Source: Candidatus Latescibacterota bacterium
GTDB lineage: Bacteria; Latescibacterota; UBA2968
Assembly (NCBI GenBank): GCA_965205975.1
Contig: OZ242195.1
Location: forward strand, 4,128,001 to 4,192,000
Direction of reading: 5' to 3'
DNA: 64,000 nt
Below, in pieces: positions 1 through 15,374 of the stretch. Position 1 is the first letter of the stretch, and the number at the start of each line of letters is the position of its first letter. The notes beneath the pieces were generated by a model. The model was given only the letters and a program-made list of their open reading frames with translations. It had not been told where the DNA came from and made no database searches. The position numbers and the translations under genes were made by a program.

Positions 1-2
1 GC

Positions 3-218
3 GGGGGCAGCATGAGCGAATCCATCCTCGCCCGATTCGACTGCGACCTCAGCCGCGACACAGACCGCCCCCTCTTCAAAAACAACAACCTGCGCTTTGA
101 CGAACCCACCTACTTCCAGCGCGTCCTCAAATTGCCCGAATACCTCCAAAAGCAAATCCTCAGAGAACAGAATGATACTGATCAAAATACCATCGGAACC
201 TTCAAGGAGCCATCATGA
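3..218 (+). CDS. 3' end of a gene entering from the left edge (hypothetical)
   Basis: Frame is open back to the window edge; its stop overlaps the next ATG (ATGA at 215-218), suggesting translational coupling. Confidence 0.5.
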   Translation, partial: GGSMSESILARFDCDLSRDTDRPLFKNNNLRFDEPTYFQRVLKLPEYLQKQILREQNDTDQNTIGTFKEPS

Positions 219-1291
219 AAACGATCTACCGTTTAACACTCGTGCAAGGGATATGCTGTTTCCTGCTCATCGGCGGACTGCTCGCCCCACCCGCAGAGGC
301 AGTTAAATTTCGCACCGAAGCAGGTCAACTCCAGCAATCAAAATTCGTCATCGCCATACCGGAGTCCTGGAACGGAAAACTCCTAATGCTGGCGCACGGC
401 CATCGCTCCGAAAATGCGCCCCTGAGCGCCGATTTTCGCACAGAGTCTCCCACGTACCAGCATTTGCTTGCCGATGGCTGGATGATCGCATCTACCAGCT
501 ACCGCCGCAACGGAGCGATCATCGTCGATGCGGTAGCGGACATCGAACTGCTACGCCAGCACATTGCCCAAACTTATGGCGCGCCCAAACGTCTGCTTGT
601 ACAGGGCAGCTCAATGGGCGGTGCGATCGTGACACTGATCGCCGAAACCGCACCCGAAGGTTATGACGGCTTGCTCGCGTTGGGGGCGGCACTGCAAGTG
701 CGAGATGCAGAGCAACCCCACGAATGGCGTTATACCCCGCGTCTCCCGTTGCTCTTCGTCAGTAACCAGAGTGAAGTGGAGGGACCCCAGGCGTATATCC
801 AGAAAGCGGCAAAGGCACCGAATGTGCCAGTGTTCTGGTCTGTGGCACGCGACGGACATGTGAACCTCAGAGAGATCGAACGGGAAACCGCGTTGCGCGC
901 GCTCGACGCCTATCTGGACACCGGCACGATTGAACGAGACAAAGACGCGACCATCGCTCCGAATCATGTGTCGTCTGCGGAATTTGTGGAAGGTGGGGCT
1001 TACACAAAGATAGAGAGCATCTCCTCGACCTACGGCAACATCAACACCGAATTTATCGAAGGCGACCTGCAGCAACTTGGCATCTCTCCCAAAACCCGTT
1101 TTCAGGTCAGCTATGGGGAGCAGACGTTCACAGTGTTGCTTGCCACCACCTATGGAGACGTACCGCGGGGAGAGTGGGTTGCATTCCTGACAGCGGAAGG
1201 TCGCTTGAGGATTGCTCGCAACTACGAAAACGCCTCAAAGACACTTGGGTGTAAGGAGGGCGACAAAATCTTCATCGCGCCCGCCGAATAA
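215..1291 (+). CDS. Secreted alpha/beta-hydrolase fused to a SAM hydrolase/halogenase-type C-terminal domain
   Basis: Signal-peptide-like N-terminus (..PPAEA); HG motif, GSSMGG nucleophile elbow, GH catalytic His; C-terminus YGNINT..TYGDVPRGE..EGRLRIARNYENASKTLG..GDKI matches the SAM hydroxide adenosyltransferase C-domain pattern. Confidence 0.7.
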   Translation: MKTIYRLTLVQGICCFLLIGGLLAPPAEAVKFRTEAGQLQQSKFVIAIPESWNGKLLMLAHGHRSENAPLSADFRTESPTYQHLLADGWMIASTSYRRNGAIIVDAVADIELLRQHIAQTYGAPKRLLVQGSSMGGAIVTLIAETAPEGYDGLLALGAALQVRDAEQPHEWRYTPRLPLLFVSNQSEVEGPQAYIQKAAKAPNVPVFWSVARDGHVNLREIERETALRALDAYLDTGTIERDKDATIAPNHVSSAEFVEGGAYTKIESISSTYGNINTEFIEGDLQQLGISPKTRFQVSYGEQTFTVLLATTYGDVPRGEWVAFLTAEGRLRIARNYENASKTLGCKEGDKIFIAPAE

Positions 1292-1313
1292 ACCTTATAA
1301 AAGGAGTTTCTAC

Positions 1314-2540
1314 ATGGAAATGCTGTATCTATTGATCGCATTTGTAATTGGAGGCGTGGTTGGGGGCGTGATTATGAGCCTGCGAAAGAATGGGGATGAG
1401 GCTTTGCGAATTGAGTTGGCGAAGTTGCAGAGCGAGAAGGACGCCCAGGCGGACAAAGAAGAGTGGATCAAAAAAGCGGAAGAAAAATTGCGCGAGGCTT
1501 TTGACTCGCTGGCGGGCAAGTCATTGCGTCACAATGCCGATGCATTTTTGAAACAGGCGCAAACGCAAATGACCGGCGTACTAAATGAGGTCCGCGGCGA
1601 TTGGAAGACGCAGAAATCGGAAATGCAAAACTTGATGACGCCAGTGCGAGAGAATTTGGACAAACTCGACGGACATGTGCGGTTGCTGGAGGAAAAACGA
1701 GAAGGCGCGTATCGAGCACTCGACCAGCAATTAAAGGAACTCATGGATATGCAGCACAAACTTCAAACCACGACCGTCACATTATCTCAGGCACTCAAAT
1801 CATCTTCTGTGCGCGGACAATGGGGCGAGATTCAGTTGCGTCGCGTGGTGGAACTGGCGGGCATGGAACGATGGGTAGATTTTGAGGAACAGGTATCAGG
1901 TGACAGTGGCCGTCCGGATATGGTTGTGCATTTGCCTGGTGGGGGAGCGTTGCCAGTAGATGCCAAAACACCTATGACATCTTATTTGAACGCCGCGGAA
2001 GCTGATGATGATAAAGCATACAAAAACTATATGAGAGCACATGCTCAAGCAGTGCGCGGTCGGGTGCGCGAATTGGGGCAAAAAGCCTACTGGTCGCAGT
2101 TTGAAAAGACGCCAGAGTTTGTCGTCATGTTTGTGCCTGTTGAAGCCAGTGTTGCCGCGGCGTTTGAGGAAGAGCCAGGTTTGTTGGACGATGCCTTGCA
2201 AAGCAAAGTGCTGATTACAACGCCCGTGACACTGTTGGCGCTCTTGAAGGCTGTTGCTTACGGCTGGCAACAACAGGCGGTGTCTGAAAACGCGCGTCAA
2301 ATAGCCGCCGCGGGCAAAGAGTTATACCAGCGCATAACGCCATTTTTTGCCCACCTTAATACCCTGGGAAGTCGTATCGATCAGACCGTTAAGAGTTATA
2401 ATCAGTCCATCGGGTCACTGGAACACAGGGTTTTGCCCTCTGTGCAGCGGCTTCAGGCGTTGGACGTTGGAGACAACGAACTCAATGCGCCCCAGACCAT
2501 TGATCAACGCACCCGGTCATTGCCCGAAGCGTTAGAGTAG
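1314..2540 (+). CDS. rmuC: DNA recombination protein RmuC
   Basis: N-terminal TM helix, coiled coil, RGQWGEIQLRRVVELAGM, RPDMVVHLPG, VDAK, FVVMFVP motifs; AAGGAG RBS at 1301 supports the ATG at 1314. Confidence 0.93.
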   Translation: MEMLYLLIAFVIGGVVGGVIMSLRKNGDEALRIELAKLQSEKDAQADKEEWIKKAEEKLREAFDSLAGKSLRHNADAFLKQAQTQMTGVLNEVRGDWKTQKSEMQNLMTPVRENLDKLDGHVRLLEEKREGAYRALDQQLKELMDMQHKLQTTTVTLSQALKSSSVRGQWGEIQLRRVVELAGMERWVDFEEQVSGDSGRPDMVVHLPGGGALPVDAKTPMTSYLNAAEADDDKAYKNYMRAHAQAVRGRVRELGQKAYWSQFEKTPEFVVMFVPVEASVAAAFEEEPGLLDDALQSKVLITTPVTLLALLKAVAYGWQQQAVSENARQIAAAGKELYQRITPFFAHLNTLGSRIDQTVKSYNQSIGSLEHRVLPSVQRLQALDVGDNELNAPQTIDQRTRSLPEALE

Positions 2541-2634
2541 CCGAAGCGCAACATCAGAGTGAAACAGACGATATTAGGGCCTCTACAACAGGATGGTTCA
2601 AATTATGGGTTACAGATCCCTTGTCCCATCCGAT

Positions 2635-4557
2635 TTAGTATTTAAAAATCTCATTACTGCCCGAGAGGCTGTTAAGAGTAACCCTTTTATCCACTGGGTT
2701 CTTAATACCCTCAACTCGCCATCGCTCTAACGCAAAATTCACATATCTTTCCTCGTGTAGATCGAGAAATCTCGTATAGACTAAGTACCAATATTTCCAT
2801 GTCTTATTCTTCCGCTGTTCGTTGTTTTCTATCTCTTCCTGCGCTTGATCGAATAAATCTATCAACTCTCGGATCATCCGCGTATCCGGAACTTTTTCTG
2901 TGTTTCTAAAGTACTCCGTAACTTTTTCTTCGGGTGTTTTTTTTCCCATGCTTAGGTTTATAGATTCTTTGAGCAATATAAAATTTCCAAGGCGCCTTTT
3001 ATTTCTGTCAAGATTACCTTTGTCATTAATTCTCTTTGTATCTGCAACAGCCCAGATGTGTTCTAAGTGATAAAAGTCATTGGGATGTTGAGGATCTCTC
3101 TCAGCCAGATATTGCTCTAATTTTTCCTCTCTTCCCTCCTTGCGTTCCAAATTTCCCTCATAACTTGCCAGAAAGTATTTCAGCCATGACCAGTGATAGT
3201 AGTCTCCTGATTCATCTATATCTAAAGTCAGATTTTTGATCAGGTTTTTGTCTTTGGCATTATTATTTACAAATTCGCGCAATCGTTCTTCCAGCCATGA
3301 TGCATTGATCAGCACATCATCACGAGTTTTTGAATGATGGTTATAGAAATCGTGAGCCAACTTAAAAAGTTCTCCCTGTCCAGAATCAGTCCGGGAGGCA
3401 ATACCTGTTCCGTAGAATCGAAAGTTGAGTTTTTCAACCAATTCCAATAAAGGTACTCTCGTTGAGGCCTCAGTCTCGCGGTTAAATATTGCAAGAATCA
3501 ATGGCAACACGGATGCCAAGACAGGTTGATGCCCAAGACGAGTCAGGCATTCCTTTTCTTTATCTTCAGTTACTCCTTCTCTTGTGTAAAGTTTCTGATA
3601 CGTAAGTGCTGTTTTTTCGAGAAATGCGACGAAATCTTCGAGCCGCTTCCTGTCATTCCCTGTGGTGGGGAACTGATCTTTCAGGTTGTCATAGACGTTG
3701 AAGCTTTTGTTTTTAGTAGCGTCCTGAAATACGATCCAGCAGTTACGAAGGAATCCATTTTCGTCATCGTTGGATGTGTGATTGCAGCGATTAAGGTGTT
3801 CTAATATTTCTGACCACTTGTCATCCACAGCCTTTTTTAAGTCCTGAATGTCATTCTTTTCCGAATAGTACATAAGATAATTTTTCACTTTTTCCAATTC
3901 GCTCAGTGGTTTCCCCCGGTTATTGATAACTTCGAACATGATGCCTATTTCTCTCGTGTTATTAGGGGCGTACATTAGGAATCCGAGTTGGTTTGTAATA
4001 TATTCATAGATTTTAGAAAGAGATATTCCATTTTTAGGTTGAAGCCATTTCTTAAACTGATCAAATGCATCAACAATGTTTTGATGTCCCTTATTTTTAA
4101 CTTTTCCACTGGAGTCTGAGTCAGGTTCCTTAACCATATCCCAAAATAGGTTATCTTGTTCATTTGATAAGGCAAATTTGCGACAGGTGTTTCCGTGTTC
4201 GCTCCCTTCTTCAAGAAAGTAACGTCTCAAATCCTCTGGTTCCGGAATATTCCTTCGTTCACAGACATGAGCCATGCAGGACAAGAGAATTATCAGGGTT
4301 GCCAGTCGCTGTTGACCATCTACTATTTCGAAGTGGTCATTATCCTGAATTGAGTCTTTCTTGACTGCAACCAATGTGCCAGTATAGTGGCTATATCCCC
4401 CGTCCATTCCATATTCTATATCTTTGATTAAGTCTTTGCGCTGGTCTTCCTCCCATGAGTATCCGCGTTGATAGGCAGGGATACTGAATGATCTGTTTCC
4501 CTCAGCGAAAACCTGCTTCAATGTGAGTAATTCAAGACGTTGTTCAATGGTGAACAT
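2635..4557 (-). CDS. DUF262-DUF1524 (GmrSD/SspE-like) modification-dependent restriction endonuclease
   Basis: IPAYQRGYSW, IVDGQQRLAT, FEVINNRGKPL (DUF262); LEHIWA..LGNFILL..IN (DUF1524 HNH-like); GGAGG RBS; AT-rich. Confidence 0.88.
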   Translation of the reverse strand: MFTIEQRLELLTLKQVFAEGNRSFSIPAYQRGYSWEEDQRKDLIKDIEYGMDGGYSHYTGTLVAVKKDSIQDNDHFEIVDGQQRLATLIILLSCMAHVCERRNIPEPEDLRRYFLEEGSEHGNTCRKFALSNEQDNLFWDMVKEPDSDSSGKVKNKGHQNIVDAFDQFKKWLQPKNGISLSKIYEYITNQLGFLMYAPNNTREIGIMFEVINNRGKPLSELEKVKNYLMYYSEKNDIQDLKKAVDDKWSEILEHLNRCNHTSNDDENGFLRNCWIVFQDATKNKSFNVYDNLKDQFPTTGNDRKRLEDFVAFLEKTALTYQKLYTREGVTEDKEKECLTRLGHQPVLASVLPLILAIFNRETEASTRVPLLELVEKLNFRFYGTGIASRTDSGQGELFKLAHDFYNHHSKTRDDVLINASWLEERLREFVNNNAKDKNLIKNLTLDIDESGDYYHWSWLKYFLASYEGNLERKEGREEKLEQYLAERDPQHPNDFYHLEHIWAVADTKRINDKGNLDRNKRRLGNFILLKESINLSMGKKTPEEKVTEYFRNTEKVPDTRMIRELIDLFDQAQEEIENNEQRKNKTWKYWYLVYTRFLDLHEERYVNFALERWRVEGIKNPVDKRVTLNSLSGSNEIFKY

Positions 4558-4752
4558 GTAAAGCCTCCCGTGTATTGGTCAACTTAAAAGATAGAGCAAC
4601 AAATGTTCTCGGATAGCCAAAAAAAGGCCGATCTTCCTTATCAATATGAACAGATTCCAATGTATAAAAAATAAATTACAGATGTCAAGATCAATGGTTC
4701 GGACACTTTTTGATAGATTCTCCATTAGATAAAAACCTGAGTTTCTATAATA

Positions 4753-4779
4753 CAAAAGGGGATTATATACAATAGTGCC
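4753..4779. repeat. Left copy of a 27-bp imperfect inverted repeat flanking the 233-aa gene
   Basis: caaaaggggattatatacaatagtgcc matches the reverse complement of 5514-5540 at 24/27. Confidence 0.85.
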
Positions 4780-4792
4780 CAAAAATTACCCA

Positions 4793-5494
4793 TCACTCTC
4801 GTATATACCGCAGAAACACACTTCCGTCCCTATCATCTAACCACTCCTCAAGACTTGTCCCATTCAAAACACTTACAGGAACATCTCTCCATTCCTTCTT
4901 GCTAAAATTCCTGTAACCCATATACTCCAACATACCAGACGCAGGATAATGAACATTTAAAATCTCTACACTACCATCATAATCCTCATCAAAAATGAAC
5001 GGACGACCACTAACACGACTAAAAATATCTCCCGTAATACGCCCCAACCTCGCAGACCCCATATAACGCTTTTCATAGAGAGAATCCATATATATTGTAT
5101 ATGCGCGGCTCTTGCCACTCAACGCACCACGCGGAACAATCAAAACAGAATCTTGATCAGACTCTACACCCAAGTCTGCGACAACACGACCAAACACCTC
5201 TAAATCCATGACCTCAGGCTTCCCCTGATGAACAGTTCCTTTATTGACAATAAAAAAACTTTCCTCTCTCCTAACCCTCCCTTCCCTATCTTTCCAACGA
5301 CCCTTCAGGGAGATAATAAAAAAACTTGACCACAACTTTAACTTTGCCAACAACTTCGCATGTCGCTTTCTCTGCTCCCGACGGGGAATATTGCCTCCCG
5401 TAATATATCTCGAAATCATCGCACAATCATACGTCTCATTGTGTTCCACAATCCGAGATAAACCCTCCAACATCAAACCAGAACGACTATCCAT
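4793..5494 (-). CDS. Hypothetical protein, phage SAM-lyase-like motifs (paralogue A, 233 aa)
   Basis: CAMISRY..RKRHAKL..LKGRWKD..REESFFIV..GVESDQDSVLIV..SRAYTIY; ATG at 5494 follows a GGGGG RBS-like run; clearly paralogous to the 5549-6592 product. Confidence 0.6.
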   Translation of the reverse strand: MDSRSGLMLEGLSRIVEHNETYDCAMISRYITGGNIPRREQRKRHAKLLAKLKLWSSFFIISLKGRWKDREGRVRREESFFIVNKGTVHQGKPEVMDLEVFGRVVADLGVESDQDSVLIVPRGALSGKSRAYTIYMDSLYEKRYMGSARLGRITGDIFSRVSGRPFIFDEDYDGSVEILNVHYPASGMLEYMGYRNFSKKEWRDVPVSVLNGTSLEEWLDDRDGSVFLRYIRE

Positions 5495-5513
5495 AATATA
5501 ACCCCCAATAATT

Positions 5514-5540
5514 GGCACTATTTTATATAATCTCCTCTTG
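5514..5540. repeat. Right copy of the 27-bp inverted repeat
   Basis: ggcactattttatataatctcctcttg; reverse complement of 4753-4779 at 24/27. Confidence 0.85.
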
Positions 5541-5548
5541 GAAGCATC

Positions 5549-6592
5549 TCAATCGAACAGCAGATAAGAGTCTGTTTGCGCCTGGTATAAGGGTTTCAGT
5601 TCGTGTATATACAGGCCAACGTGCTCAGAAATAATCCACAGATCATTTGGGCGATCCAGCCTGCCACTTAGAAACCGCACCGTGTAAACGTCATCATCCT
5701 GGTAATACGTAATATAGCAAGAAGATGCACCATTCGTTGCGCTCGGTGCCATTGGTAACAACATCCAGAAGTTGCCATACCAATCTACACCATAGCGTTC
5801 ACCTTTTGCACCCATCAGGCGATACAGGTTATCCCGCCCGCCAAATCCATTCATAGCCGTTTCTATAAAGTCATTTATATCGTCGTCACAGGCAACATAC
5901 TCGGGAATCTCCTGAGATGGGATGTAAAACTCACGACGCGGTTCTCTTTTAGCCTGAAGAGAAAAACCGGATAAACAAATTTCTGTTTCTTCCCAGTCTT
6001 CTTGTCCCAGTCGGTGAAAAAAATCAAGACCCATATTATTTGCGGCGTCCCTATGTTGTGTGACAGCCTTTATTTTTTTTATTGAATCGGCGTCTCTGCC
6101 ACCAACGCGAGCAAAAAAGGCTTTAATCTCCCTGTTTATAAGCGTCCGACCAAAGAACTTTTTCTCCTTATTTAACAATCGCAAAAAATTGTGCTCGCAC
6201 GTATTGGTACGGGCATAATATGCCCGACTCTTACCCCTACCTTGCAGCGCACCTTTCGGAATAATCAGAACAGCATCTTGTTCAAAACTCTCCCCAAAAG
6301 AAATGATATTCTCGGCAAACTGTTCACTGCCATGATAATTGAGAACAAAAAAAGTTCTCTCCGAAGAATCCTGCCCACCATCCCTGAATTGACCCAAAAC
6401 CGATATCGCGCGGTAACGCCTGCTCATCAGTTTGTATAACAAATTGGTGCTTCGCTGTAAGTTTTCTCTTTTGGTATATCTCTTGCCCTGCCCACAATCT
6501 CGTGCTGTGCGATATGCCGAAATGAACGCACAATCATGTTGGTTGTCGTACGTGAGAAAGCTATATAGCTCTGATTCCATAAAAAAATCCAT
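5549..6592 (-). CDS. Hypothetical protein: N-terminal SAM-lyase-like domain plus C-terminal phage/MGE-type domain (paralogue B, 347 aa)
   Basis: CAFISAYR..ENLQRS..VLGQFRD..SERTFFV..GESFEQDAVLII..SRAYY; AAAGGA RBS before ATG 6592 (alternative start 6607). Confidence 0.62.
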   Translation of the reverse strand: MDFFMESELYSFLTYDNQHDCAFISAYRTARDCGQGKRYTKRENLQRSTNLLYKLMSRRYRAISVLGQFRDGGQDSSERTFFVLNYHGSEQFAENIISFGESFEQDAVLIIPKGALQGRGKSRAYYARTNTCEHNFLRLLNKEKKFFGRTLINREIKAFFARVGGRDADSIKKIKAVTQHRDAANNMGLDFFHRLGQEDWEETEICLSGFSLQAKREPRREFYIPSQEIPEYVACDDDINDFIETAMNGFGGRDNLYRLMGAKGERYGVDWYGNFWMLLPMAPSATNGASSCYITYYQDDDVYTVRFLSGRLDRPNDLWIISEHVGLYIHELKPLYQAQTDSYLLFD

Positions 6593-6625
6593 GATCTGTC
6601 CTTTCATAATTGATTCCGTCCCTGA

Positions 6626-7432
6626 TTATGCCTGCTCTGGCGTCATCATCACGGCAATGTCTTCTGGCAATTTCACATCATATTTCTCCTCAAATTCCTC
6701 AACATTTTTGTAATTCTCACAAAATCTCCTGATAATATCCATACCCTTGCTCTTGACAATTGTCAGATCTGCTCTGGCGTTATACCATCTGCCCATGCGT
6801 AACCACGTTTCACCGCGGTAATAATAGGCCACAGTGTAATCCGGGTATAATTCTATGGCCTTGTTAAAATCTTCAATAGCACAGTCATACGCGCATTTAT
6901 CCCTGTAAATTTTGCCACGATAGAAATAGGGGTCGGGATTATCCGGATCCAGTTCCATAACCGCGCTGTGGTCTTCCAGAGCCAGGGCACTCTCACCTTT
7001 AAATTCGTAACAAAAACCACGCAGATAATAGTATATTTGGTCGTATGGGTTTAGTTCTATGGCTTTGGTGAAGTCCTCAATACCCTGGTCAAGGTCGCCT
7101 TCATCACTGTAAGCATTGCCGCGATTGAAATAGGCGTCAGGATCATCCGGGGCTATTTCCATGGCTTTATTGAAGTCTTCTAGAGCCAAGTCATCCTCGC
7201 CTTTATATCTATAAGTCTTGCCACGATTGTTATAGGCTTCCACATAATCCGGGTTCAGTTCTATGGCCTTATTGAAGTCCTCAATACCCCGGTCATAATC
7301 GCCTTTATCGCTGTAAACACTGCCGCGATTGTTATAGACTGTCGCATCAGTCGGGTTCAGTTCTATAACTTTGGTCAGGTCTTCAATGGCAGGGCCATTC
7401 TCGTCTCGATCAAAAATATCTAAAATATCCAT
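6626..7432 (-). CDS. Tetratricopeptide repeat protein
   Basis: About six 34-aa repeats of the form AYxNRGxxYxxKGxYDxAIEDFNKAIELNP; AAAGGA RBS before ATG 7432. Confidence 0.93.
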   Translation of the reverse strand: MDILDIFDRDENGPAIEDLTKVIELNPTDATVYNNRGSVYSDKGDYDRGIEDFNKAIELNPDYVEAYNNRGKTYRYKGEDDLALEDFNKAMEIAPDDPDAYFNRGNAYSDEGDLDQGIEDFTKAIELNPYDQIYYYLRGFCYEFKGESALALEDHSAVMELDPDNPDPYFYRGKIYRDKCAYDCAIEDFNKAIELYPDYTVAYYYRGETWLRMGRWYNARADLTIVKSKGMDIIRRFCENYKNVEEFEEKYDVKLPEDIAVMMTPEQA

Positions 7433-7452
7433 GACTTGTCCTTTCGCAATGG

Positions 7453-10332
7453 TCAGAAACCTGTCGGGTTGTTGCCGGGTTTTATGCGGCATTCCTCGGT
7501 GAGTGCCTGTGAAATTTGTTCGGGATCGTCCATGAAGCCCAGGACCTCTGCGCGCTTCCGCACGTTGGCAAAGTCCGCGGGGGTGAGTTTGGTCAGCGCG
7601 AGTGCCGAAGACGGTGCTTTGCAGTTGAAAAACAATTCAAAGGCGCGGTTAATGCGCGGTTGGTCCAAAAAGTAAAACTGGATGCGAAATAGGAAGCGGC
7701 GTGCGGATGCCTCGTCGAGGCTGTCTCCCCGGTTCGTGGTGCAGGCAAATGGGAGGGGATGCCGCTCCATCTGGCTGAGCAATTCGTTGACCATGCTCAC
7801 TTCCCAACTGCGTTGGGCAGATTGACGGTTCATCAGAAGCGAATCCACTTCGTCGAAGATCAGAAATGCGTTCTTCTCAAGTGCCGCGGCAAAAGCAGAG
7901 GCAATCTGTTCCTCGGTTCCTCCGACGAATGCGTTCAAAAGATCGGATGCCCGTTTGCATAACACATCCATCCCCATCTGCTCGGCGATGTAGTGTGCAA
8001 AAGCCGTTTTGCCCGTACCGGGAGGACCACACAAGCAGAGCGAGAACTGGCGCGTATCAAGCCCGATGATCCGCTCGACCAGTGTCGGGAGATCCTTATC
8101 TGCGTGGATAAGGGCCGGGTCGTATTGTGCAATGGGCAGCATGTCGGGAGAACGCACGCCATAGCGCAGTTTTTCTTTTTGATCGATGTTGCGCTTGATC
8201 GTCTCACTGAGTTTGTGTTTGGTCGCACAGGTGGAATGATCTCGCACGAGAACAGCCTGTTTGGTCGCTAAAGTGACCTGGCGAGGGGTCACTTTGTTTT
8301 TATGTGCCAGTTCTTCGGCCAGTTGTCTGGTCTCGCTGTCTGACATACCCGCCTGGCGCAGGATATCCGCATAAACGGTTTCTCGGCTGCGAACAGGTAT
8401 GTGGCGAAACTCAATGGCGTATAGAATGCGGTCGATGAAGAACGACTTAAACATGCGGTAGAACTCAATTGAGTTACACGTCCAGATAATGGGCACCGGG
8501 TTCGCTTCGACAATGCGGTTCAGCCAGTGTTTTTGCGGCTGGCGAAAGTCTTCCATCTCATCAAAGAGAATCGCGGCATTTGGTTCGTCTGCCAAGGCTT
8601 CGAGGGCATAATCCAATGTCTCTGTGCGGCCTGCACTCAGGCGTGCCTGTGGACCGATTTCATTTTCCCCGATGGCGTATAAACGCGCGCCGACCTCGCC
8701 GCAAAGGGTGCGCGCAAACTCGGTTTTGCCAGTGCCCGGCGGTCCGTACAGGAGGATATTGATCCCCTTCTCTTTCTTCTCTATCACTGCGGCAAGGGTA
8801 TCTCGCACAGCGTCCGCATCTTGTCCGAGGTGTGAAAATGCCGCCCACGGAACCTTTGCCTCGATGGGTGGTCCCAGGCGCGGACGGGCACTGTGTGTGG
8901 CGATGGTGCGTTCCAGCCGCTCGCAGAAGTGGTAAATATCACGCTCGCCACCACCGATGAGGCGGGTGTTTTCGATAGCTTGTGCCAGAAGACCAGGAGG
9001 ACACTCGAGTTGATCGACCAGACGCCGCGCGCATGCGACCGCATCAATGCCCTCGATATTGCTTTTTTCCAACATCTGTTGCAGAATTGCGGTTTGGCGG
9101 GTCGGGCTGTGAGCTGTGAAGGTGAGGATATAGGTGAAACGCCGCAACATGCTTTCGTCTAAGTGATCCAGACGATTGGCTGTATAGACCACGGGCACGG
9201 GAGTATTTTCCAGCAGGCGGTGGTTCATCAGGCGGGTGCCCCGGATGGAATCCAGAACGTCCTCGGCCTCGTCGCACAAGATCGCGGCATCGGGAACGGA
9301 TCGTAAGAGAACTTGAGCCAGGTGCAACTGGTTGCGGCGTCTGGTGCCAGCCTTGGCCGCGCTATCGAAAGGTTCCTGATCTTCCCGGTTCGGCTCGCCG
9401 ATGGAAAAGAGGGATGTGCCGGCCGCCTGCGATAGGGTTTTGGCAAATTCGGTTTTCCCGGTGCCTGCCCGCCCAACCAGCAGGATATTGACCCCCGGCG
9501 TAGATAGGTCTTTGTGCCGCCTTTGCACAACTGCGCGAAGCAGGCGCACGGCCTCATCCCGATCCTCGAGGTATGCGAAGTCGCTCAGGTGCAGCGTGGC
9601 TTCGCAGGGCTGACCGACCAGACGCGCCACCAATTCATCCAGATCCCGTACGGGCGGATGCCATACGCGGGAAAAATATTTATGTGTGTAGTCGGTGGGA
9701 TCAGTGCGATTAGAGCGCAGATCTTCCAGGTCAGTAATACCCGCATCGGCCAGTTCGCGGAACGCATCCTTGACTTCTTCGCACGCGCAACCCAACAAGA
9801 TCGCAGTCGCTGTGAAATGGTCATGGATATCAGAGAACTCATCCCACAGGTTTTGGGTTAGAGAATCACAGTCATAACAGCATCTCAGGGTGAGTAGGGC
9901 GTGAGCTACGGATCCTAAAGAAAAACGCTGAACAATGAGACGGGTTGCTATCTCTTCAGGGGAAGGTGCGGGCTGCTGTTGTGTTTTCTCTTTAAACGTT
10001 TTTACCGCGTAGTCGAAGAATTGGTTTTGCTCTGGCTGATCGTCTTCCCGTTTTCTCTTCCTGTCAAATATCCTGTCGTACTCCTGTAGGAGAGAAGGGT
10101 CCAGTGTTTCCAGAGGATCATTATAGTGTCCGATCCAGTCGTGTATTGCCTTTTGCACCCGTCGATCCCTCTTTACTTTGCCAAGTGCGTTCAGCATGTA
10201 GATGCGGTTCATGTACAGGCTGTATTCATTGATGTATAGACTATCTTCATTGTCAATCATGGGTAGAATCTCCTTTCGTGTTCTGCGCCTCATATGCCTT
10301 ATAGCGATGCGACTCCTACGACGGTATTTCAT
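7453..10332 (-). CDS. AAA+ ATPase with three AAA modules
   Basis: Walker A GRAGTGKT, GPPGTGKT, GPPGTGKT; Walker B ILCDEAE, ILFDEME, LIFDEVD; arginine-finger motifs LDESMLRRF and LDEASARRF; GGAGG RBS at ATG 10332, second RBS at ATG 10260. Confidence 0.9.
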   Translation of the reverse strand: MKYRRRSRIAIRHMRRRTRKEILPMIDNEDSLYINEYSLYMNRIYMLNALGKVKRDRRVQKAIHDWIGHYNDPLETLDPSLLQEYDRIFDRKRKREDDQPEQNQFFDYAVKTFKEKTQQQPAPSPEEIATRLIVQRFSLGSVAHALLTLRCCYDCDSLTQNLWDEFSDIHDHFTATAILLGCACEEVKDAFRELADAGITDLEDLRSNRTDPTDYTHKYFSRVWHPPVRDLDELVARLVGQPCEATLHLSDFAYLEDRDEAVRLLRAVVQRRHKDLSTPGVNILLVGRAGTGKTEFAKTLSQAAGTSLFSIGEPNREDQEPFDSAAKAGTRRRNQLHLAQVLLRSVPDAAILCDEAEDVLDSIRGTRLMNHRLLENTPVPVVYTANRLDHLDESMLRRFTYILTFTAHSPTRQTAILQQMLEKSNIEGIDAVACARRLVDQLECPPGLLAQAIENTRLIGGGERDIYHFCERLERTIATHSARPRLGPPIEAKVPWAAFSHLGQDADAVRDTLAAVIEKKEKGINILLYGPPGTGKTEFARTLCGEVGARLYAIGENEIGPQARLSAGRTETLDYALEALADEPNAAILFDEMEDFRQPQKHWLNRIVEANPVPIIWTCNSIEFYRMFKSFFIDRILYAIEFRHIPVRSRETVYADILRQAGMSDSETRQLAEELAHKNKVTPRQVTLATKQAVLVRDHSTCATKHKLSETIKRNIDQKEKLRYGVRSPDMLPIAQYDPALIHADKDLPTLVERIIGLDTRQFSLCLCGPPGTGKTAFAHYIAEQMGMDVLCKRASDLLNAFVGGTEEQIASAFAAALEKNAFLIFDEVDSLLMNRQSAQRSWEVSMVNELLSQMERHPLPFACTTNRGDSLDEASARRFLFRIQFYFLDQPRINRAFELFFNCKAPSSALALTKLTPADFANVRKRAEVLGFMDDPEQISQALTEECRIKPGNNPTGF

Positions 10333-10443
10333 GGGCAAAACCTCCCTTCGCTCTAATTCGATTTTTCTCCTTTATCTTTTATGATCTGACCTTACGCAAT
10401 CAACCGCCCCCGCTGTGTTTTTTGTGTTACAAATGAAAATTGA

Positions 10444-10459
10444 AGCAAATACCGTGCCA
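10444..10459 (-). promoter_or_regulatory. Sigma54 (-24/-12) promoter of the AAA-TPR operon
   Basis: Minus strand reads TGGCAC-GGTAT-TTGCT, an exact match to TGGCAC-N5-TTGCW, ~110 bp upstream of the AAA start. Confidence 0.72.
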
Positions 10460-10490
10460 AAGTTTGGACAATAGCTCCCTTTGTGTTCTT

Positions 10491-10540
10491 ATTTTTTTGC
10501 TTTTCTCTACTTTTCTTTGCTTTTCTCTGCTTTTCTCTGT
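10491..10540. repeat. Pyrimidine-rich 10-bp tandem repeat (TTTTCTCTGC-like, about 4-5 units)
   Basis: ttttctctac ttttctttgc ttttctctgc ttttctctgt. Confidence 0.6.
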
Positions 10541-10596
10541 ATCCTCTATGGTTTGTGTGGTTGCTTTTTATTTTTAATTCCCAACCGGAGACCCCA

Positions 10597-12000
10597 ATGC
10601 CCAACCCCAACATCGTCTATATCTTCTTCGACGACCTCGGTTACGGAGACATCCGCTACCTCAATCCCGAATCCAAAATCCAAACCCCGAATATCGACCG
10701 CCTGTCCGCTGAAGGCATGTGCTTCACCGATGTCCACTCGTGCTCCGCCGTGTGCTCCCCCTCGCGCTACGGCGTCTTAACCGGACGCTATTGCTGGCGC
10801 ACCCGATTGCAAAACGGCGTCCTCAACGGATACTCAGAACCCCTCATCGAACCCGACCGCCTGACCGTCGCATCCCTGCTCAAACAACACGGATATCACA
10901 CCGCTTGCATCGGCAAATGGCATGTGGGATTAAACTGGACGCGCAAAAAAGGCGTCCAGAACCTCGAAAATTACAGACTGGGATGGGATCGAGGCGAAGC
11001 CATAGACTTCACCCAACCATTTACCGACGGACCGTGCGACCTCGGATTCGACTACTTTTACGGCATCTCCGCATCCCTGGACATGCCGCCTTATGTCTAT
11101 CTCGAAAACAACCGCACAATCTGTGAACCAACAGCCCGTGCTCCCAAGGGCCTCTTTGGACGCGAGGGACACGCTGCGCCGGGCCTCAAACCCGAACACG
11201 TCATCCCGGACCTCACAAAAAAAGCGGTCTCCTTCATCGAAGAAACTGCAACAGACAAACACCCCTTTTTCCTCTACTATCCCGTAACCGGACCGCACAC
11301 ACCCATCGCGCCAAACAAAGCATTCACAGACAAAAGCCAGGCCGGCAAATACGGCGACTTCGTCGTCGAATGCGACTGGGCAGTGGGGCAAATCATGGAC
11401 GCTGTTGAAAAAGCCGGCGCCACCGATAACACCCTCTTTATCGTCACCAGCGACAACGGACCCGAACGCTTTATGCACGCGCGAAAACAAGAATACAATC
11501 ACTACAGTGCCTATCACTTCCGCGGCTGCAAACGCGACAACTGGGAAGGCGGGCATCGCATCCCCTTTATCGCCCGCTGGCCCGAAAAAGTCGCCGCCGG
11601 ATCCTTCAGCGACGAAATCGTATGTCTCACAGACCTCATCGCAACAGCCGCCGACATTGTCGGCCATACCCTTCCCGAAAATACCGGCGAAGACAGTTGC
11701 AGCATCTTACCCATCCTGACGAGCCAGAACGCGACATCCATCCGCGAAGCCACCGTGCATCACTCATCCAAAGGCGAATTTGCCATCCGCCAGGGCAAAT
11801 GGAAATTGCTCCTCCACCAAAGCTCCGGCGGCAATGATTATCCCGACGACCCAATAGATGATGCTCCCGGCCAACTCTACGACCTGGAAACCGGCTACCG
11901 AGAACGCGAAAACCTCTACGCGCAACACCCCGAAATCGTATCCCGATTGACCGACCTGCTCAACCAGTACAAAACGAGGGGACGCAGTGTCCCCGCATAA
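10597..12000 (+). CDS. Arylsulfatase (Cys-type S1 sulfatase)
   Basis: PNIVYIFFDDLGYGD, CSPSR, GKWH, SDNG, WEGGHRIPF; GGAG RBS before ATG 10597. Confidence 0.95.
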   Translation: MPNPNIVYIFFDDLGYGDIRYLNPESKIQTPNIDRLSAEGMCFTDVHSCSAVCSPSRYGVLTGRYCWRTRLQNGVLNGYSEPLIEPDRLTVASLLKQHGYHTACIGKWHVGLNWTRKKGVQNLENYRLGWDRGEAIDFTQPFTDGPCDLGFDYFYGISASLDMPPYVYLENNRTICEPTARAPKGLFGREGHAAPGLKPEHVIPDLTKKAVSFIEETATDKHPFFLYYPVTGPHTPIAPNKAFTDKSQAGKYGDFVVECDWAVGQIMDAVEKAGATDNTLFIVTSDNGPERFMHARKQEYNHYSAYHFRGCKRDNWEGGHRIPFIARWPEKVAAGSFSDEIVCLTDLIATAADIVGHTLPENTGEDSCSILPILTSQNATSIREATVHHSSKGEFAIRQGKWKLLLHQSSGGNDYPDDPIDDAPGQLYDLETGYRERENLYAQHPEIVSRLTDLLNQYKTRGRSVPA

Positions 12001-12014
12001 ACCCGGAGGAAGCG

Positions 12015-13670
12015 ATGAACGCTTCGGATCTATTTGTCAAAGCACTGGAAAATGAAGGCGTGGAATATATCTACGGCGTGCCGGGAGAAGAAAACCTCGC
12101 CTTTTTGGAAGCCCTTCGCAAATCGAGCATCAAACTCATCCTGACCCGCCACGAACAGGGAGCCGCGTTTATGGCTGCGACTTACGGACGGCTCACGGGC
12201 AAAGCCGGCGTCTGCCTTGCCACACTCGGTCCCGGCGCGACCAACTTTGTGACAGGTGCGGCCTATGCCCAACTGGGCGGCATGCCCCTGCTCATGATCA
12301 CGGGCCAAAAACCCATCAAAAAGAGCAAACAGGGCCAATTTCAGATCATCGACGTTGTAAGCATGATGGAACCCCTCACAAAATACACCCGACAAATCGT
12401 CAACGTAGATATGATCCCCTCCATGGTGCGGGAGGCGTTTCGCCTCGCACAAGAAGAGCGCCCCGGCGCCGTACACCTGGAATTGCCGGAAGATGTCGCC
12501 GAAGAACCCGTTGACGAACACACCACGCCGGTCTTTAACATCAGCACATGCAGGCGCGGCGACGCCAATGAACGCGCCATTGACGACGCGGTAAAAATGA
12601 TCAAAGAAGCCACGCGCCCCTTGCTCCTCCTGGGCGCGGGCACCAACCGCAAACGCATCTGGGAATCCGTGGCGCATTTCCTCGACAAAACCGGCATCCC
12701 CTTTTTCAATACCCAACTGGGCAAAGGCGTCGTTGGCGGCCTCCATCCCCTATTTCTGGGCACCGCAGCACTCTCCGATGGCGACTATCTCCACTGTGCC
12801 ATTGAACGCGCCGATCTGATCATAAACGTCGGACACGATGTCGTGGAAAAACCGCCATTTTTCATGTCACACGACGAAGGGGCAACCCGGGTCATCCACA
12901 TCAACTTCCAATCCGCCGTGGTAGATAATGTCTATTTTCCACAACTGGAAGTAGTAGGCGACATTGCAAATACCATCCGGCGCCTCGCCGACAAAACTGG
13001 CAAAACAGCCTCGCACGATTTCGACTATTACATGCGAATCCGCGACCAAATACAGGAACACATTCGTCTGGGAGAAAACGACAACAGCTTCCCGGTAAAA
13101 CCACAGCGCCTCGTCTGGGACGTCCGCAAAGTCCTGCCCGAAGACGGCATTATTGCGCTGGACAACGGCGTGTACAAAATCTGGTTTGCACGCAACTACC
13201 CAACCACACAACCCAATACCGTATTGCTGGACAACGCCCTTGCCACCATGGGCGCGGGCCTGCCCTCGGCAATGGAAGCCGCGCGGTTTTATCCCAACCG
13301 GCGGGTCATGGCGATTTGCGGCGACGGTGGTTTTATGATGAACAGCCAGGAATTGGAAACAGCCGTAAGACTCAACCTCAATCTCGTCGTCCTGATCTTA
13401 CGAGACAATGCCTACGGCATGATCCGCTGGAAACAATACGGGATGGGGCTTCCCGATTTTGGACTGGAATTTGACAACCCGGATTTTGTCATGTACGCCA
13501 ACAGTTATGGCGCGCATGGACACCGCGTGAAATCCACAGAAATGACCGTACCCCTGCTGGAAAAATGTTATACCAAAGGCGGCGTACACCTCGTCGAAAT
13601 ACCCGTGGATTACTCTGAAAATCAGAAAGTGCTCGTTGATGAACTACAAGCAAAGACTTGTTTATTATAA
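12015..13670 (+). CDS. Acetolactate synthase large subunit (ThDP-dependent)
   Basis: YGVPGEEN, RHEQGAAFMA, TLGPGATN, GDGGFMMNSQE..DNAYGMI ThDP motif. Confidence 0.93.
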   Translation: MNASDLFVKALENEGVEYIYGVPGEENLAFLEALRKSSIKLILTRHEQGAAFMAATYGRLTGKAGVCLATLGPGATNFVTGAAYAQLGGMPLLMITGQKPIKKSKQGQFQIIDVVSMMEPLTKYTRQIVNVDMIPSMVREAFRLAQEERPGAVHLELPEDVAEEPVDEHTTPVFNISTCRRGDANERAIDDAVKMIKEATRPLLLLGAGTNRKRIWESVAHFLDKTGIPFFNTQLGKGVVGGLHPLFLGTAALSDGDYLHCAIERADLIINVGHDVVEKPPFFMSHDEGATRVIHINFQSAVVDNVYFPQLEVVGDIANTIRRLADKTGKTASHDFDYYMRIRDQIQEHIRLGENDNSFPVKPQRLVWDVRKVLPEDGIIALDNGVYKIWFARNYPTTQPNTVLLDNALATMGAGLPSAMEAARFYPNRRVMAICGDGGFMMNSQELETAVRLNLNLVVLILRDNAYGMIRWKQYGMGLPDFGLEFDNPDFVMYANSYGAHGHRVKSTEMTVPLLEKCYTKGGVHLVEIPVDYSENQKVLVDELQAKTCLL

Positions 13671-13732
13671 CGTTATTGCTCCTTGATCATTTTTTTAACA
13701 ATATTAGTCAACAAATCTGTTGACTAATATTT
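13640..13732 (+). repeat. 93-bp direct repeat, copy 1 (ALS 3' end plus 14-bp-arm palindrome)
   Basis: 81/93 identical to 13853-13945; contains aatattagtcaaca-aatc-tgttgactaatatt. Confidence 0.9.
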
Positions 13733-13852
13733 ATTAGCTGACTTAAAATATAACTTCAAATTTATAAAAAACTCGCAGTTGACTCTTCCCCTGCCCCTTG
13801 CCATAGGCGAAGGTGCAATAGGCTTGTTGAATGAGCCTCAAGAACAACTCAT

Positions 13853-13945
13853 TGAACTGCAAACAAAGACTTGTTTATTATGACGTTATTGCTTCCCTAT
13901 CGTTTTTTTAAAAATATTTGTCAACAAATCTGTTGATAAATATTT
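13853..13945 (+). repeat. 93-bp direct repeat, copy 2
   Basis: Encodes ELQTKTCLL* versus ALS ELQAKTCLL*; palindrome retained. Confidence 0.9.
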
Positions 13946-13984
13946 GCCAACAGTGCAATAAATAACTTGCACCGCTGGCATGTC

Positions 13985-15301
13985 CTAATCCATCAACCTC
14001 ACATTGTATTGTCGCGCAGAGGACCGGTATCCGCGATACAGACTCTCATCCAGAGGATGCGGCGTGTAAATATAGATCGCGGAATCCCACGGATTGTACA
14101 GAACCACCTCTTCCCGTTCATCTCCGCACACATCTGCTGGAATGCAGTGATACCATGCCATGCGCCCAACGGGTTCCGGATCCGGAAGACCCGGCAGAGA
14201 GATAGAGGTCCCCTCAAGAGGCAGCCACAGCATCCCACCATTGTACAGAAGCGCAGGCGCGTCCGCCCCATTCCAGTACACAACCTCCATACCCGTATTG
14301 TTGGGCGAAGGATTGAGGCGAAAACCGTTGAGACAATTCCCTTTTGTATCCACAACCATAACATCCGTATTGTGACCCTGATATCGAATCACCATCTGGG
14401 GAGACGGATCGTGCGCGCTAAACCGCGCCACCCTCACCTCCTGACCGTGGGGAACCTTCTCCTCGCCGAGACGCAGAACTACATTTCCACAACCGTCCAT
14501 CACATGTCCAAACCCAGAGCATATGGCACGCATCTGTCCATTATCCCACTCTGTGATAAACACCGAATCCATATTCCATCCAAGTTGCTCTTCCCAGAGC
14601 ACCGTCCCATCGTGATCTAACAAAAAGTATCCGCCATTCACCTCGTCCCTGCCATCGCCGTCAATGTCTCCGACCGAGGGAATGTACGCAGGACATCGGC
14701 TGTACTCGGTCCATTCGGATTCATAGGTCCAGAGTACCTGAAGATCCTCATCAAAAGCAATGACCTTGCCCCCGAGCTTAATCACAAAATCTCGAGGCGT
14801 ATCAGTCCCGCGGAAATTGGCAATCATAATGCGCTGATGCACCCAATTCGCCCCTTGTCCACGACACGACTGCAACTCAGCGGGATTATCTTGCTTCACG
14901 AGATCGCCATTCGCCCCGTCCCGAATCTGAATGACGACATTTGCCATCGAATCGGGATCGGCCTCAACCGCAGGATCCAGGAAAAAGCAAATAACCTCCT
15001 CAGCTCCATCGCCATCAATATCGCAAATAGCGACGGGACCTGGCCGGCTGGGCTGGACGCCACCCTCTCCCACCCGCCACAGAACCTCGCCATCCGCGTT
15101 AAAAGCACCGAGAAAACACGGCTTCATGCCCCCGCCGTCATGCGCATCGTCAACCGACCGGTACACCAGAAAATCCGCCCGCCCCTTTCCCTCGAGATCG
15201 CCCATCCGGATATCCCCGCCATATATACCCTCCTCTGCCGTAACGCAGAACTCAGGCGGAATCTCCACTCGCTTATATAAAATCGGGCTGCCGTATTGCA
15301 T
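13985..15301 (-). CDS. FG-GAP-repeat / rhamnogalacturonan lyase (PL11)-like beta-propeller protein
   Basis: Repeated DxDGDGxxE Ca-binding motifs (CDIDGDGAEE, GDIDGDGRDE, ADVCGDEREE); DHDGTVLW; PHGQ. Confidence 0.65.
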   Translation of the reverse strand: MQYGSPILYKRVEIPPEFCVTAEEGIYGGDIRMGDLEGKGRADFLVYRSVDDAHDGGGMKPCFLGAFNADGEVLWRVGEGGVQPSRPGPVAICDIDGDGAEEVICFFLDPAVEADPDSMANVVIQIRDGANGDLVKQDNPAELQSCRGQGANWVHQRIMIANFRGTDTPRDFVIKLGGKVIAFDEDLQVLWTYESEWTEYSRCPAYIPSVGDIDGDGRDEVNGGYFLLDHDGTVLWEEQLGWNMDSVFITEWDNGQMRAICSGFGHVMDGCGNVVLRLGEEKVPHGQEVRVARFSAHDPSPQMVIRYQGHNTDVMVVDTKGNCLNGFRLNPSPNNTGMEVVYWNGADAPALLYNGGMLWLPLEGTSISLPGLPDPEPVGRMAWYHCIPADVCGDEREEVVLYNPWDSAIYIYTPHPLDESLYRGYRSSARQYNVRLMD

Positions 15302-15345
15302 CGGGTTGCTCCCCTTGTCTTTATGTAGTTCAACAAAAAAATGCC

Positions 15346-15374
15346 TTGAAAGAATATATCTCTCTAACTAAGAT
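15346..15374 (+). promoter_or_regulatory. Putative sigma70 promoter
   Basis: TTGAAA-N17-TAAGAT upstream of the 15466 ORF. Confidence 0.45.

What the first reader, a model, noticed from the sequence alone, without database searches (positions are those of the whole stretch)
2635..10459. Candidate new system: sigma54-driven triple-AAA ATPase, TPR protein, two SAM-lyase-like proteins and a GmrSD-like nuclease
Seen: five co-directional minus-strand genes between rmuC and a sulfatase, with tight spacing among the first four (20, 33 and 54 bp), a perfect sigma54 motif upstream, and more AT-rich sequence in the distal genes. Known: DUF262-DUF1524 proteins are modification-dependent restriction enzymes typical of defence islands; phage T3 SAM lyase destroys SAM to disable SAM-dependent restriction; AAA plus TPR pairs often act as sensor/remodeller modules. 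Inference: a defence or stress module in which the ATPase and TPR control SAM-cleaving (or SAM-like nucleotide-cleaving) effectors, next to a SAM-independent nuclease. I do not recognise this gene combination from any named system.
Basis: partly seen in the sequence, partly recalled or inferred. Interest (0 to 1): 0.85.

Follow-up and report, generated by a model that had tools for sequence, protein, structure and literature searches.

The report
Captured phage SAM lyases behind ATPase
This is not one five-gene system but a gene-swapping defence spot, in which a bacterium keeps virus-type enzymes that probably destroy the cell's methyl donor SAM behind a stress-linked ATPase gene, a use of these normally viral enzymes that has not been tested.

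Summary
The genes, spacings and sigma54 site are real, but the five genes are not a fixed system. They fill most of a 9.3 kb insertion that is absent from 10 of 12 genus relatives holding both flanks. TPR is missing in one strain. The second lyase (SL2) sits between IS1595-type inverted repeats and is missing in three relatives. GmrSD has its own promoter-like site and occurs elsewhere without the ATPase.

What recurs is ATPase plus lyase. All 5 of 168 phylum genomes with the lyase carry it downstream of the triple-AAA gene. SL1 has the T3 SAM-lyase fold, keeps the three conserved substrate-binding residues, and is under purifying selection (dN/dS about 0.2).

The ATPase is normally the lead gene of a WYL-regulated operon with changing cargo: 17 of 20 loci have a WYL gene and a DriD-type box. 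This copy lacks both and keeps only the sigma54 site.

Best reading: a stress- or infection-induced operon whose phage-derived cargo drains SAM. Activity and role are untested. New variant of a WYL-type defence island.

The parts
1299..10575 (.). Inserted island (about 9.3 kb) in the short spacer between a hydrolase gene and a sulfatase gene; right end approximate
   Evidence: Flank genes are 15-27 bp apart in 10 of 12 genus relatives that have both; junctions read; no integrase seen among the island ORFs
10444..10459 (-). sigma54-type -24/-12 promoter site
   Evidence: a relaxed form lies upstream of the AAA in 9 of 14 triple-AAA loci of this genus and 0 of 6 in the sister family
10381..10400 (-). 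Copy of a 20-nt leader repeat in the AAA 5' leader
   Evidence: Repeat family D4
7453..10332 (-). Triple-AAA ATPase (start 10332 or 10260): N-terminal helical bundle and winged-helix-like domain, then three AAA modules
   Evidence: Pfam; Walker A Lys, Walker B Asp-Glu, sensor Asn and an Arg-finger-position Arg kept in 39-40 of 40 aligned rows in all three modules; N-terminal model pLDDT 88.9 with weak winged-helix matches, Z up to 7.6; no GAFTGA loop
7431..7450 (-). 20-nt leader repeat (RBS plus start) at the TPR 5' end
   Evidence: the joint that skips TPR in run X5 (6593 to 7442) falls at these repeats
6626..7432 (-). TPR-repeat protein, optional cargo
   Evidence: shorter in G012 (228 aa); skipped in X5; dN/dS 0.24-0.25
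6591..6610 (-). 20-nt leader repeat (RBS plus start) at the SL1 5' end
5549..6592 (-). SL1: SAM-lyase-family domain (about residues 15-210) plus a C-terminal alpha/beta domain of no clear family
   Evidence: PF23780 above cut-off; best PDB matches are T3 and Svi3-3 SAM lyases; G72, E83, Q110 conserved; dN/dS 0.21-0.24
5514..5535 (+). IS1595-type terminal inverted repeat
4793..5494 (-). SL2: second SAM-lyase-family protein of a different clade, passenger between inverted repeats
4758..4779 (-). IS1595-type terminal inverted repeat; no 8-bp target duplication survives here
4692..4756 (.). About 65-bp repeat dispersed in genus genomes
   Evidence: Many 77-89% matches to query 2293-2357
4659..4688 (-). 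sigma70-like promoter site upstream of GmrSD
   Evidence: 10 of 12 consensus match (the scan found 16 sites against 11.8 expected, so weak on its own); the same stretch is kept in G012
2635..4557 (-). GmrSD-family (DUF262-DUF1524) nuclease, independent defence gene
   Evidence: (PADLOC HEC-06, E 2e-48)
1314..2540 (+). rmuC, also part of the insertion
   Evidence: Absent from this site in relatives; homologues in G007 and G020 align from window 1299 onward in other contexts

Best explanation
The locus is a defence hotspot holding two units. Unit 1 is a sigma54-driven operon AAA-(TPR)-SL1-(SL2). It derives from a widespread 'WYL regulator, AAA lead gene, changing cargo' operon, and this copy has lost the WYL gene and its box (architecture shown by comparison). 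Unit 2 is a separately promoted GmrSD nuclease (inferred). Proposed mechanism: a sigma54 activator encoded elsewhere switches unit 1 on under stress or infection (inferred). SL1 binds SAM at the PII-like lyase site and cleaves it to MTA and homoserine lactone (inferred from fold and residues, about 60%). The SAM drop slows the cell and starves phage or plasmid methyltransferases and base-modifying enzymes (inferred, weakest step). The ATPase acts on DNA or nucleoprotein through its winged-helix-like domain and is not a dedicated controller of the lyase (inferred).
For: Empty site in 10 of 12 relatives; the two filled sites hold other defence cargo, HEC-01 in G012 and Ssp/Pbe-type genes in G015. 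WYL gene upstream in 17 of 20 triple-AAA loci. DriD-type box in 17 of those 17 and 0 of 3 window-type loci (consensus from PMC10853764). WYL within a few genes in 5 of 6 plasmid loci of the double-AAA form that I opened. Lyase in 5 of 168 phylum genomes, each time downstream of and co-directional with the triple AAA. 18 of 31 SL1-clade records share a contig length with a triple-AAA record, against a control mean of 0.07 (indirect). SL1 fold: T3 SAM lyase is the top hit in Foldseek (8bb1, E 7e-3, probability 1.00) and VIA-align (7ock, Z 8.4, rmsd 4.2, 130 aligned). G72, E83 and Q110 occur in 86, 82 and 85 of 88 rows and fall on T3's G-x-Y, E67/E68 and Q94 positions; these are the three strictly conserved residues (PMC7877911). 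Purifying selection.
Against: No activity, expression or phage data. The 5 genomes are only two independent loci (three in one genus, two in another). Most triple-AAA loci lack a lyase (15 of the 20 examined). The Tyr58 position is Phe in SL1 and Trp in SL2, and Y58F cut Svi3-3 activity fivefold. The SL1 fold scores are moderate. A family member with the same Glu and Gln cleaves SAM-AMP and not SAM (PMC12255297), so the substrate is not fixed by these residues. Draining SAM would also disable the host's own type I restriction systems, of which G000 has five intact hsdR matches above cut-off. No sigma54 activator lies next to the island.
Confidence: 0.4

Rival explanations
1. Accretion without a joint function: phage genes land behind a strong, mobile lead gene and promoter, and the lyase is kept for a benefit unrelated to the ATPase.
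For: Cargo after the AAA is very mixed: PD-(D/E)XK nucleases, NucS, M48 peptidase, DnaB, beta-barrels, DUF2779. Junctions fall at shared RBS-type repeats. SL2 is IS-end-bounded.
Against: No lyase was found away from a triple AAA in 168 genomes. Different lyase clades sit behind the AAA in two families. One lyase clade is fused to the HTH-like gene that follows the AAA in the sister family (P0016). SL1 dN/dS is about 0.2.
Confidence: 0.22
2. Restriction alleviation: after DNA damage, the operon lowers SAM so that the host's SAM-dependent type I or BREX-type systems do not cut its own under-methylated DNA, or so that incoming DNA can establish.
For: Ancestral control is by a DriD-type WYL box, and DriD answers to ssDNA and DNA damage. 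All 5 lyase-bearing genomes have hsdR above cut-off. Alleviation after damage is known for type I systems, by other means (PMC12707154). This is the known anti-restriction chemistry of T3 SAMase.
Against: The window copy has lost the WYL box. hsdR was not counted in lyase-free relatives, so no enrichment is shown. Low SAM would also slow re-methylation.
Confidence: 0.18
3. The lyase fold acts on another ligand (SAM-AMP or a related nucleotide), or works as a PII-like sensor or an inhibitor of SAM synthetase rather than as a SAM-cleaving enzyme.
For: Only the Glu and Gln are shared between SAM and SAM-AMP lyases. G000 has a type III-B CRISPR locus. T3 SAMase also binds MAT. The SL2 clade has drifted at the SAFR-type and QD motifs.
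Against: No CorA match in 5 of 5 lyase-bearing genomes. The effectors scanned at the G000 type III locus are CARF-type. G012 has no Cas10 match.
Confidence: 0.12
4. One reading: a five-part system in which AAA and TPR sense and remodel the two lyases, working with the SAM-independent nuclease.
For: Tight spacing and shared strand. SL2 homologues share contig lengths with SL1 homologues in 3 of 12 cases. GmrSD follows SL1 in G000, G012 and X5.
Against: TPR, SL2 and GmrSD are each missing in at least one close relative. GmrSD homologues occur in unrelated islands. The full five-gene set was seen only in G000 and runs of one study.
Confidence: 0.06

Closest known systems
Phage SAM lyases: T3 gp0.3 (PDB 8BB1, 7OCK) and Svi3-3 (6ZM9); Pfam PF23780
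   Same: PII-like fold; Gly, Glu and Gln substrate-binding residues; SAFR-type first strand in SL1.
   Different: Host-chromosomal, in an operon behind an ATPase; about 200-aa form closest to uncharacterised proteins of large phages; SL1 has an extra C-terminal domain; Tyr replaced by Phe or Trp; activity untested.
SAM-AMP lyase of CorA-linked type III-B CRISPR (PMC12255297)
   Same: The one bacterial branch of this fold that I found described; same Glu and Gln.
   Different: Not in a CRISPR locus; no CorA match in the five genomes.
WYL-regulated defence and damage operons (BrxR, PMC9122601; DriD, PMC10853764)
   Same: Orthologous loci have an HTH-WYL-WCX gene and a DriD-consensus box ahead of variable, nuclease-rich cargo.
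   Different: A constant AAA lead gene, tripled in this lineage; the window copy has lost WYL and box and has a sigma54 site only.
GmrSD / BrxU type IV restriction enzymes (PADLOC HEC-06-like)
   Same: Fused DUF262-DUF1524 with the DGQQR and His-Asn motifs.
   Different: EHxxP reads EHxxA; substrate unknown.
IS1595-family transporter IS and mobile insertion cassettes
   Same: 22-27 bp inverted repeats around passenger genes; 8-bp target duplications in 5 of 8 pairs checked; a cognate-family transposase inside one pair.
   Different: The SL2 cassette has no transposase and no target duplication, and G000 has no IS1595 transposase match.

Membership tests
Phage SAM lyase (T3 gp0.3 / Svi3-3, PF23780) | PII-like ferredoxin fold of the SAM-lyase type | tested here: met
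   SL1 model: top hits 8bb1, 7ock, 6zm9; Pfam above cut-off for SL1. SL2 by homology to SL1 only; it was not folded.
Phage SAM lyase (T3 gp0.3 / Svi3-3, PF23780) | Conserved Gly56, Glu69, Gln104 (Svi3-3 numbering) | tested here: met
   G72, E83, Q110 in SL1 and the same columns in SL2; hhalign to T3, probability 78.7, E 1.7e-5, with a one-residue ambiguity at E67/E68
Phage SAM lyase (T3 gp0.3 / Svi3-3, PF23780) | Tyr58 cation-pi residue | tested here: inconclusive
   Phe in SL1, Trp in SL2; column is Y 48, F 24, W 9 of 88 rows
Phage SAM lyase (T3 gp0.3 / Svi3-3, PF23780) | Trimer with active sites between subunits | not testable with these tools
   Needs SEC-MALS or a structure
Phage SAM lyase (T3 gp0.3 / Svi3-3, PF23780) | Cleaves SAM to MTA and homoserine lactone | not testable with these tools
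   Enzyme assay needed
SAM-AMP lyase (type III-B CorA CRISPR) | Encoded with a type III CRISPR and CorA effector | tested here: not met
   No cas genes among the island ORFs; PF01544 in 0 of 5 genomes
SAM-AMP lyase (type III-B CorA CRISPR) | Extended AMP pocket and conserved T-loop Cys | not tested
   No SAM-AMP lyase sequence was aligned
GmrSD type IV restriction enzyme | DUF262 plus DUF1524 with NTP-site motifs | tested here: met
GmrSD type IV restriction enzyme | EHxxP His-metal nuclease motif | tested here: inconclusive
   Glu-His and downstream Asn residues present, Pro replaced by Ala (motif from PMC12707154)
GmrSD type IV restriction enzyme | Cleaves modified DNA | not testable with these tools
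   Assay needed
WYL (DriD/BrxR-type) regulated operon | Adjacent HTH-WYL-WCX gene and its operator | tested here: not met
   Absent at the window and in G012, G015; present in 17 of 17 other triple-AAA loci
sigma54-dependent operon | -24/-12 consensus and rpoN in the genome | tested here: met
sigma54-dependent operon | Cognate enhancer-binding activator and its upstream site | tested here: inconclusive
   22 activator matches in G000, none in window 1-16000; the AAA lacks GAFTGA; no upstream site was searched
IS1595-family cassette (SL2) | About 25-bp terminal inverted repeats | tested here: met
   family features from PMC5704250
IS1595-family cassette (SL2) | 8-bp target duplication | tested here: not met
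   Absent at the window copy; present in 5 of the 8 pairs checked
IS1595-family cassette (SL2) | Cognate DDE transposase | tested here: inconclusive
   PF12762 inside one repeat pair in G016 and near the motif in 5 of 17 transposase loci; no match in G000
IetAS and other named AAA defence systems | IetA-level ATPase score and partner protease | tested here: not met
   NF042959 90 bits against cut-off 510; no partner among the neighbours

The most novel reading that the evidence does not exclude
Bacteria have domesticated a phage anti-defence enzyme, more than once, as a host effector: an inducible SAM-draining response coupled to a DNA-acting triple-AAA ATPase. It would be a metabolite-depletion defence (or damage-time restriction switch) based on SAM, placed first under a DriD-type ssDNA sensor and then rewired to sigma54.
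Probability: 0.27. Interest if true: 0.8.

Novelty: new variant of a known kind. Interest (0 to 1): 0.52.

Why it matters
SAM lyases are known as phage weapons against restriction-modification and BREX; the one bacterial branch I found described cleaves a CRISPR signal. A chromosomal, selected, inducible copy would show the weapon turned to host use, and would make SAM depletion testable as a defence or restriction-alleviation route. The work also outlines an uncharacterised WYL-AAA lead module with a DriD-consensus operator, seen in both Latescibacterota-related genomes and proteobacterial plasmids. Its cargo slot is a place to look for new defence genes.

Tried and rejected
Trimer prediction of the SL1 lyase domain gave no verdict; it is not used for or against.

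No RNA holder was listed among 22 runs, so co-transcription could not be examined.

Sequence searches of the PDB with lyase profiles found no meaningful match; the link came from structure and from hhalign to T3. The SL1 C-terminal domain had no phage match by tblastn and only middling fold matches (Z up to 7.3). The Atlas did not hold the sequence or its homologue, so that domain stays unassigned. The AAA N-terminus had no Foldseek match at E 0.001 or better.

Pattern scans of viral and metagenome contigs returned no confirmed locus, so wider synteny rests on GTDB relatives, one run and contig-length matches.

I considered the SL2 repeats as dif/Xer sites: rejected, because the true dif lies at the GC-skew maximum (C1:1482500) and the repeats show 8-bp target duplications elsewhere. 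I considered an invertible SL2 segment: no strand-changing joint was listed in four contig sets, which drop rare variants. The AAA as its own sigma54 activator: rejected, no GAFTGA. Rfam found nothing in 1-16000.

The tree (quick method, 164 of 165 rows, T3 left out) separates SL1, SL2 and the G031/G048 lyases into distinct clades but cannot decide between one and several captures: the deep forks are open and my bacterial label was assigned by eye. Summed contig depth was lower over the island than over its flanks in two runs; not used, as flanks collect other organisms.

Literature searches (listings and abstract starts only) showed no description of a chromosomal SAM lyase behind a WYL-AAA module. 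Subscription papers and supplements were not seen; supplementary gene-neighbourhood tables of WYL or defence-mining papers could hold this pairing.
Full report
Observation. The five minus-strand ORFs, their 20, 33 and 54 bp gaps and the sigma54-type site at 10459 are as described. Pfam gives three AAA stretches, TPR repeats, S-AdoMet_lyase PF23780 for SL1 (32.5 bits, cut-off 28) and weakly for SL2, and GmrSD_N plus GmrSD_C. The sigma54 consensus (recalled) has 38 strict matches in the genome against 2.7 expected, and the genome has rpoN and 22 activator matches. The AAA gene has host-like GC (54.5%); the other four are at 40-44%. Named records carrying 88-92% identical SL1 relatives are Ca. 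Latescibacterota, so the host probably belongs there. No PADLOC or NCBIfam system fits the set.

The island. The flanking hydrolase (215-1291) and sulfatase (10588-12000) are 15-27 bp apart in 10 of the 12 genus relatives that have both, of 20 searched. The insertion in G000 therefore runs from 1299 to about 10575 and includes rmuC. The other two filled sites differ. G012 has AAA-TPR-SL1-GmrSD followed by HEC-01-like genes. G015 has AAA-TPR-SL1 followed by Ssp/Pbe-type phosphorothioate genes. A contig pair from run X5, another study, joins AAA directly to SL1 and SL1 to GmrSD, skipping TPR and SL2. The TPR-skipping joint falls at a 20-nt RBS-type repeat shared by the AAA leader, TPR and SL1. 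GmrSD lies 235 bp from SL2 with a sigma70-like site (weak alone). Its homologues at about 70% DNA identity in G036 and G043 sit with MmeI-like, Druantia and type III R-M genes, in genomes with no triple-AAA match. The five genes are thus not a fixed unit.

SL2 cassette. SL2 is bounded by 22-27 nt inverted repeats. The motif occurs in 15 of 20 genus relatives, with no match for the reversed control in any of 61 genomes. It forms inverted pairs around unrelated passenger genes, with 8-bp target duplications in 5 of 8 pairs. One pair encloses an IS1595 transposase. IS1595-type elements have about 25-bp repeats and 8-bp duplications (PMC5704250, passages). The window copy lacks the duplication, and G000 has no such transposase, so it is a stranded cassette. 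Against a purely recent, random landing: 3 of 12 SL2 homologues share a contig length with an SL1 homologue.

The ATPase. It matches 19 of 61 related genomes at E 1e-60 or better. All three modules keep their catalytic motifs in 39-40 of 40 rows. The N-terminus models as a helical bundle plus a winged-helix-like domain, with weak scores (Z up to 7.6). Of 20 full-length or split triple-AAA loci examined, 17 have an HTH-WYL-WCX gene directly upstream and changing cargo downstream. All 17 have a box between WYL and AAA that fits the DriD consensus, exactly so in three (consensus from PMC10853764, passages). The three window-type loci have neither gene nor box. A relaxed sigma54 site lies upstream in 9 of 14 genus loci, six of them WYL-type, and in 0 of 6 loci of the sister family. 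So the window copy kept the sigma54 site and lost the WYL control. A shorter double-AAA form occurs in G000 and on proteobacterial plasmids (15 records); 5 of the 6 loci I opened have a WYL gene within a few genes, with PD-(D/E)XK, DUF2779, macro, RtcB or ADP-ribosylglycohydrolase neighbours. About half of BrxR-type WYL regulators co-localise with defence systems (PMC9122601, abstract).

The lyases. A profile search found 1,159 representatives at E 0.001 or better. Named matches are in large phages: Lak, Mel-JY01, GD virus 1 and others, 11 records. The SL1 model (pLDDT 82.2) matches T3 SAM lyase best in both structure searches and annotated SAM hydrolases among viral models. The three strictly conserved Svi3-3 residues, Gly56, Glu69 and Gln104 (PMC7877911, passages), correspond to G72, E83 and Q110, kept in SL1, SL2 and 82-86 of 88 rows. 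The Tyr58 position is Phe or Trp. SL1 has dN/dS 0.21-0.24 against G012 and G015, like the AAA (0.17-0.19) and the flanking hydrolase (0.24), with synonymous distances similar to the flanks.

Linkage. The family was found in 5 of 168 phylum genomes by two searches. In all five it is downstream of and co-directional with a triple AAA, though this is only two independent loci. 18 of 31 SL1-clade records share a contig length with a triple-AAA record, 13 of them under 100 kb, against a shifted control mean of 0.07. Members were listed for only 12 AAA clusters, so misses are not absences, and the evidence is indirect. SL1, SL2 and the G031/G048 lyases fall in separate clades; one versus several captures is undecided.

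Mechanism. Shown by comparison: hotspot, optional parts, ancestral WYL control, AAA-lyase linkage, family membership, selection. Inferred: induction through a sigma54 activator in trans; SAM cleavage by SL1 (about 60%); and the purpose. I rank a SAM-draining defence or dormancy response first (0.40), accretion without joint function second (0.22), restriction alleviation third (0.18), another ligand or MAT inhibition fourth (0.12) and the five-part system last (0.06). G000 has five intact hsdR matches above cut-off. That argues against SAM drain as pure defence and for alleviation, which is known after DNA damage by other routes (PMC12707154, passages). SAM-AMP is disfavoured: CorA has no match in the five genomes and the scanned type III effectors in G000 are CARF-type, although the shared Glu and Gln do not fix the substrate (PMC12255297, parts 2-4 of 6).

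Novelty. Each part belongs to a known family, and hotspots of this kind are familiar. My searches (listings only) showed no chromosomal SAM lyase behind a WYL-AAA module. Two earlier notes of this scan describe SAM-lyase-like domains in phage proteins (unchecked by me); none of my six look-ups returned this arrangement. Verdict: new variant of a known kind, interest 0.52. The domesticated SAM-drain reading has probability about 0.27 and would merit 0.8.

Noticed in passing
window 4758-4779 and 5514-5535; G000:C1:2122462/2123371 and 1688492/1689978; L110-L112, L115, L118: A genus-wide family of IS1595-type cassettes carries passenger genes, among them a methylase-HNH gene, between the same inverted repeats. 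The outer end resembles the ISNwi1 subgroup signature as I recall it (not checked).
   Followed up: yes
L011 (G000:C1:3975459-3979376) and L012 (G000:C1:763180-768356): G000 has two further WYL-AAA loci: a 66% identical triple AAA with a DriD-type box, and a double AAA with two boxes. In the triple-AAA loci inspected, a conserved -10-like hexamer and a hairpin with a T run follow the box, which could end the WYL transcript while a WYL-activated start inside the hairpin reads through.
   Followed up: partly
L157:3900-5564 (G000:C1 about 3479900-3481560): A CARF (Cas_NE0113)-fused sigma54 activator heads a type III-B CRISPR locus with two sigma54 sites nearby; a candidate link between cyclic oligoadenylate signalling and sigma54 promoters.
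   Followed up: partly
window 1299-2540; G000:C1:742724-742875; L167-L170: rmuC behaves as a movable single-gene unit in this genus, and a copy of its 3' end lies after a type I R-M cluster elsewhere in G000.
   Followed up: partly
L166 (G015) and L165 (G012), island far end: A short duplicate of the sulfatase RBS and 5' end marks the far end of the island in G015, and a shorter RBS-like copy in G012, suggesting insertion through RBS-region homology.
   Followed up: partly
proteins P0016, P0006, P0034: Lyase fusions: to the HTH-like gene that follows the AAA in the sister family (P0016), to a TPR N-terminal stub (P0006), and to a C5 cytosine methylase fragment (P0034, possibly an assembly artefact).
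   Followed up: no
proteins P0014, P0017, P0021, P0032, P0040, P0058: Many phage-like members carry two lyase domains or an extra uncharacterised domain.
   Followed up: no
window about 31800; G000:C1:1482500: The GC-skew minimum (likely replication origin) lies in this window, and a dif site lies at the skew maximum.
   Followed up: no
L013:6368-8992: The closest TPR paralogue in G000 (48% identity) is a TIR-TPR-TaqI_C protein next to an SMC-like ATPase gene.
   Followed up: no
window 4381, minus strand: A second strict sigma54-type match lies inside the GmrSD coding sequence and is kept in G012; probably incidental.
   Followed up: no
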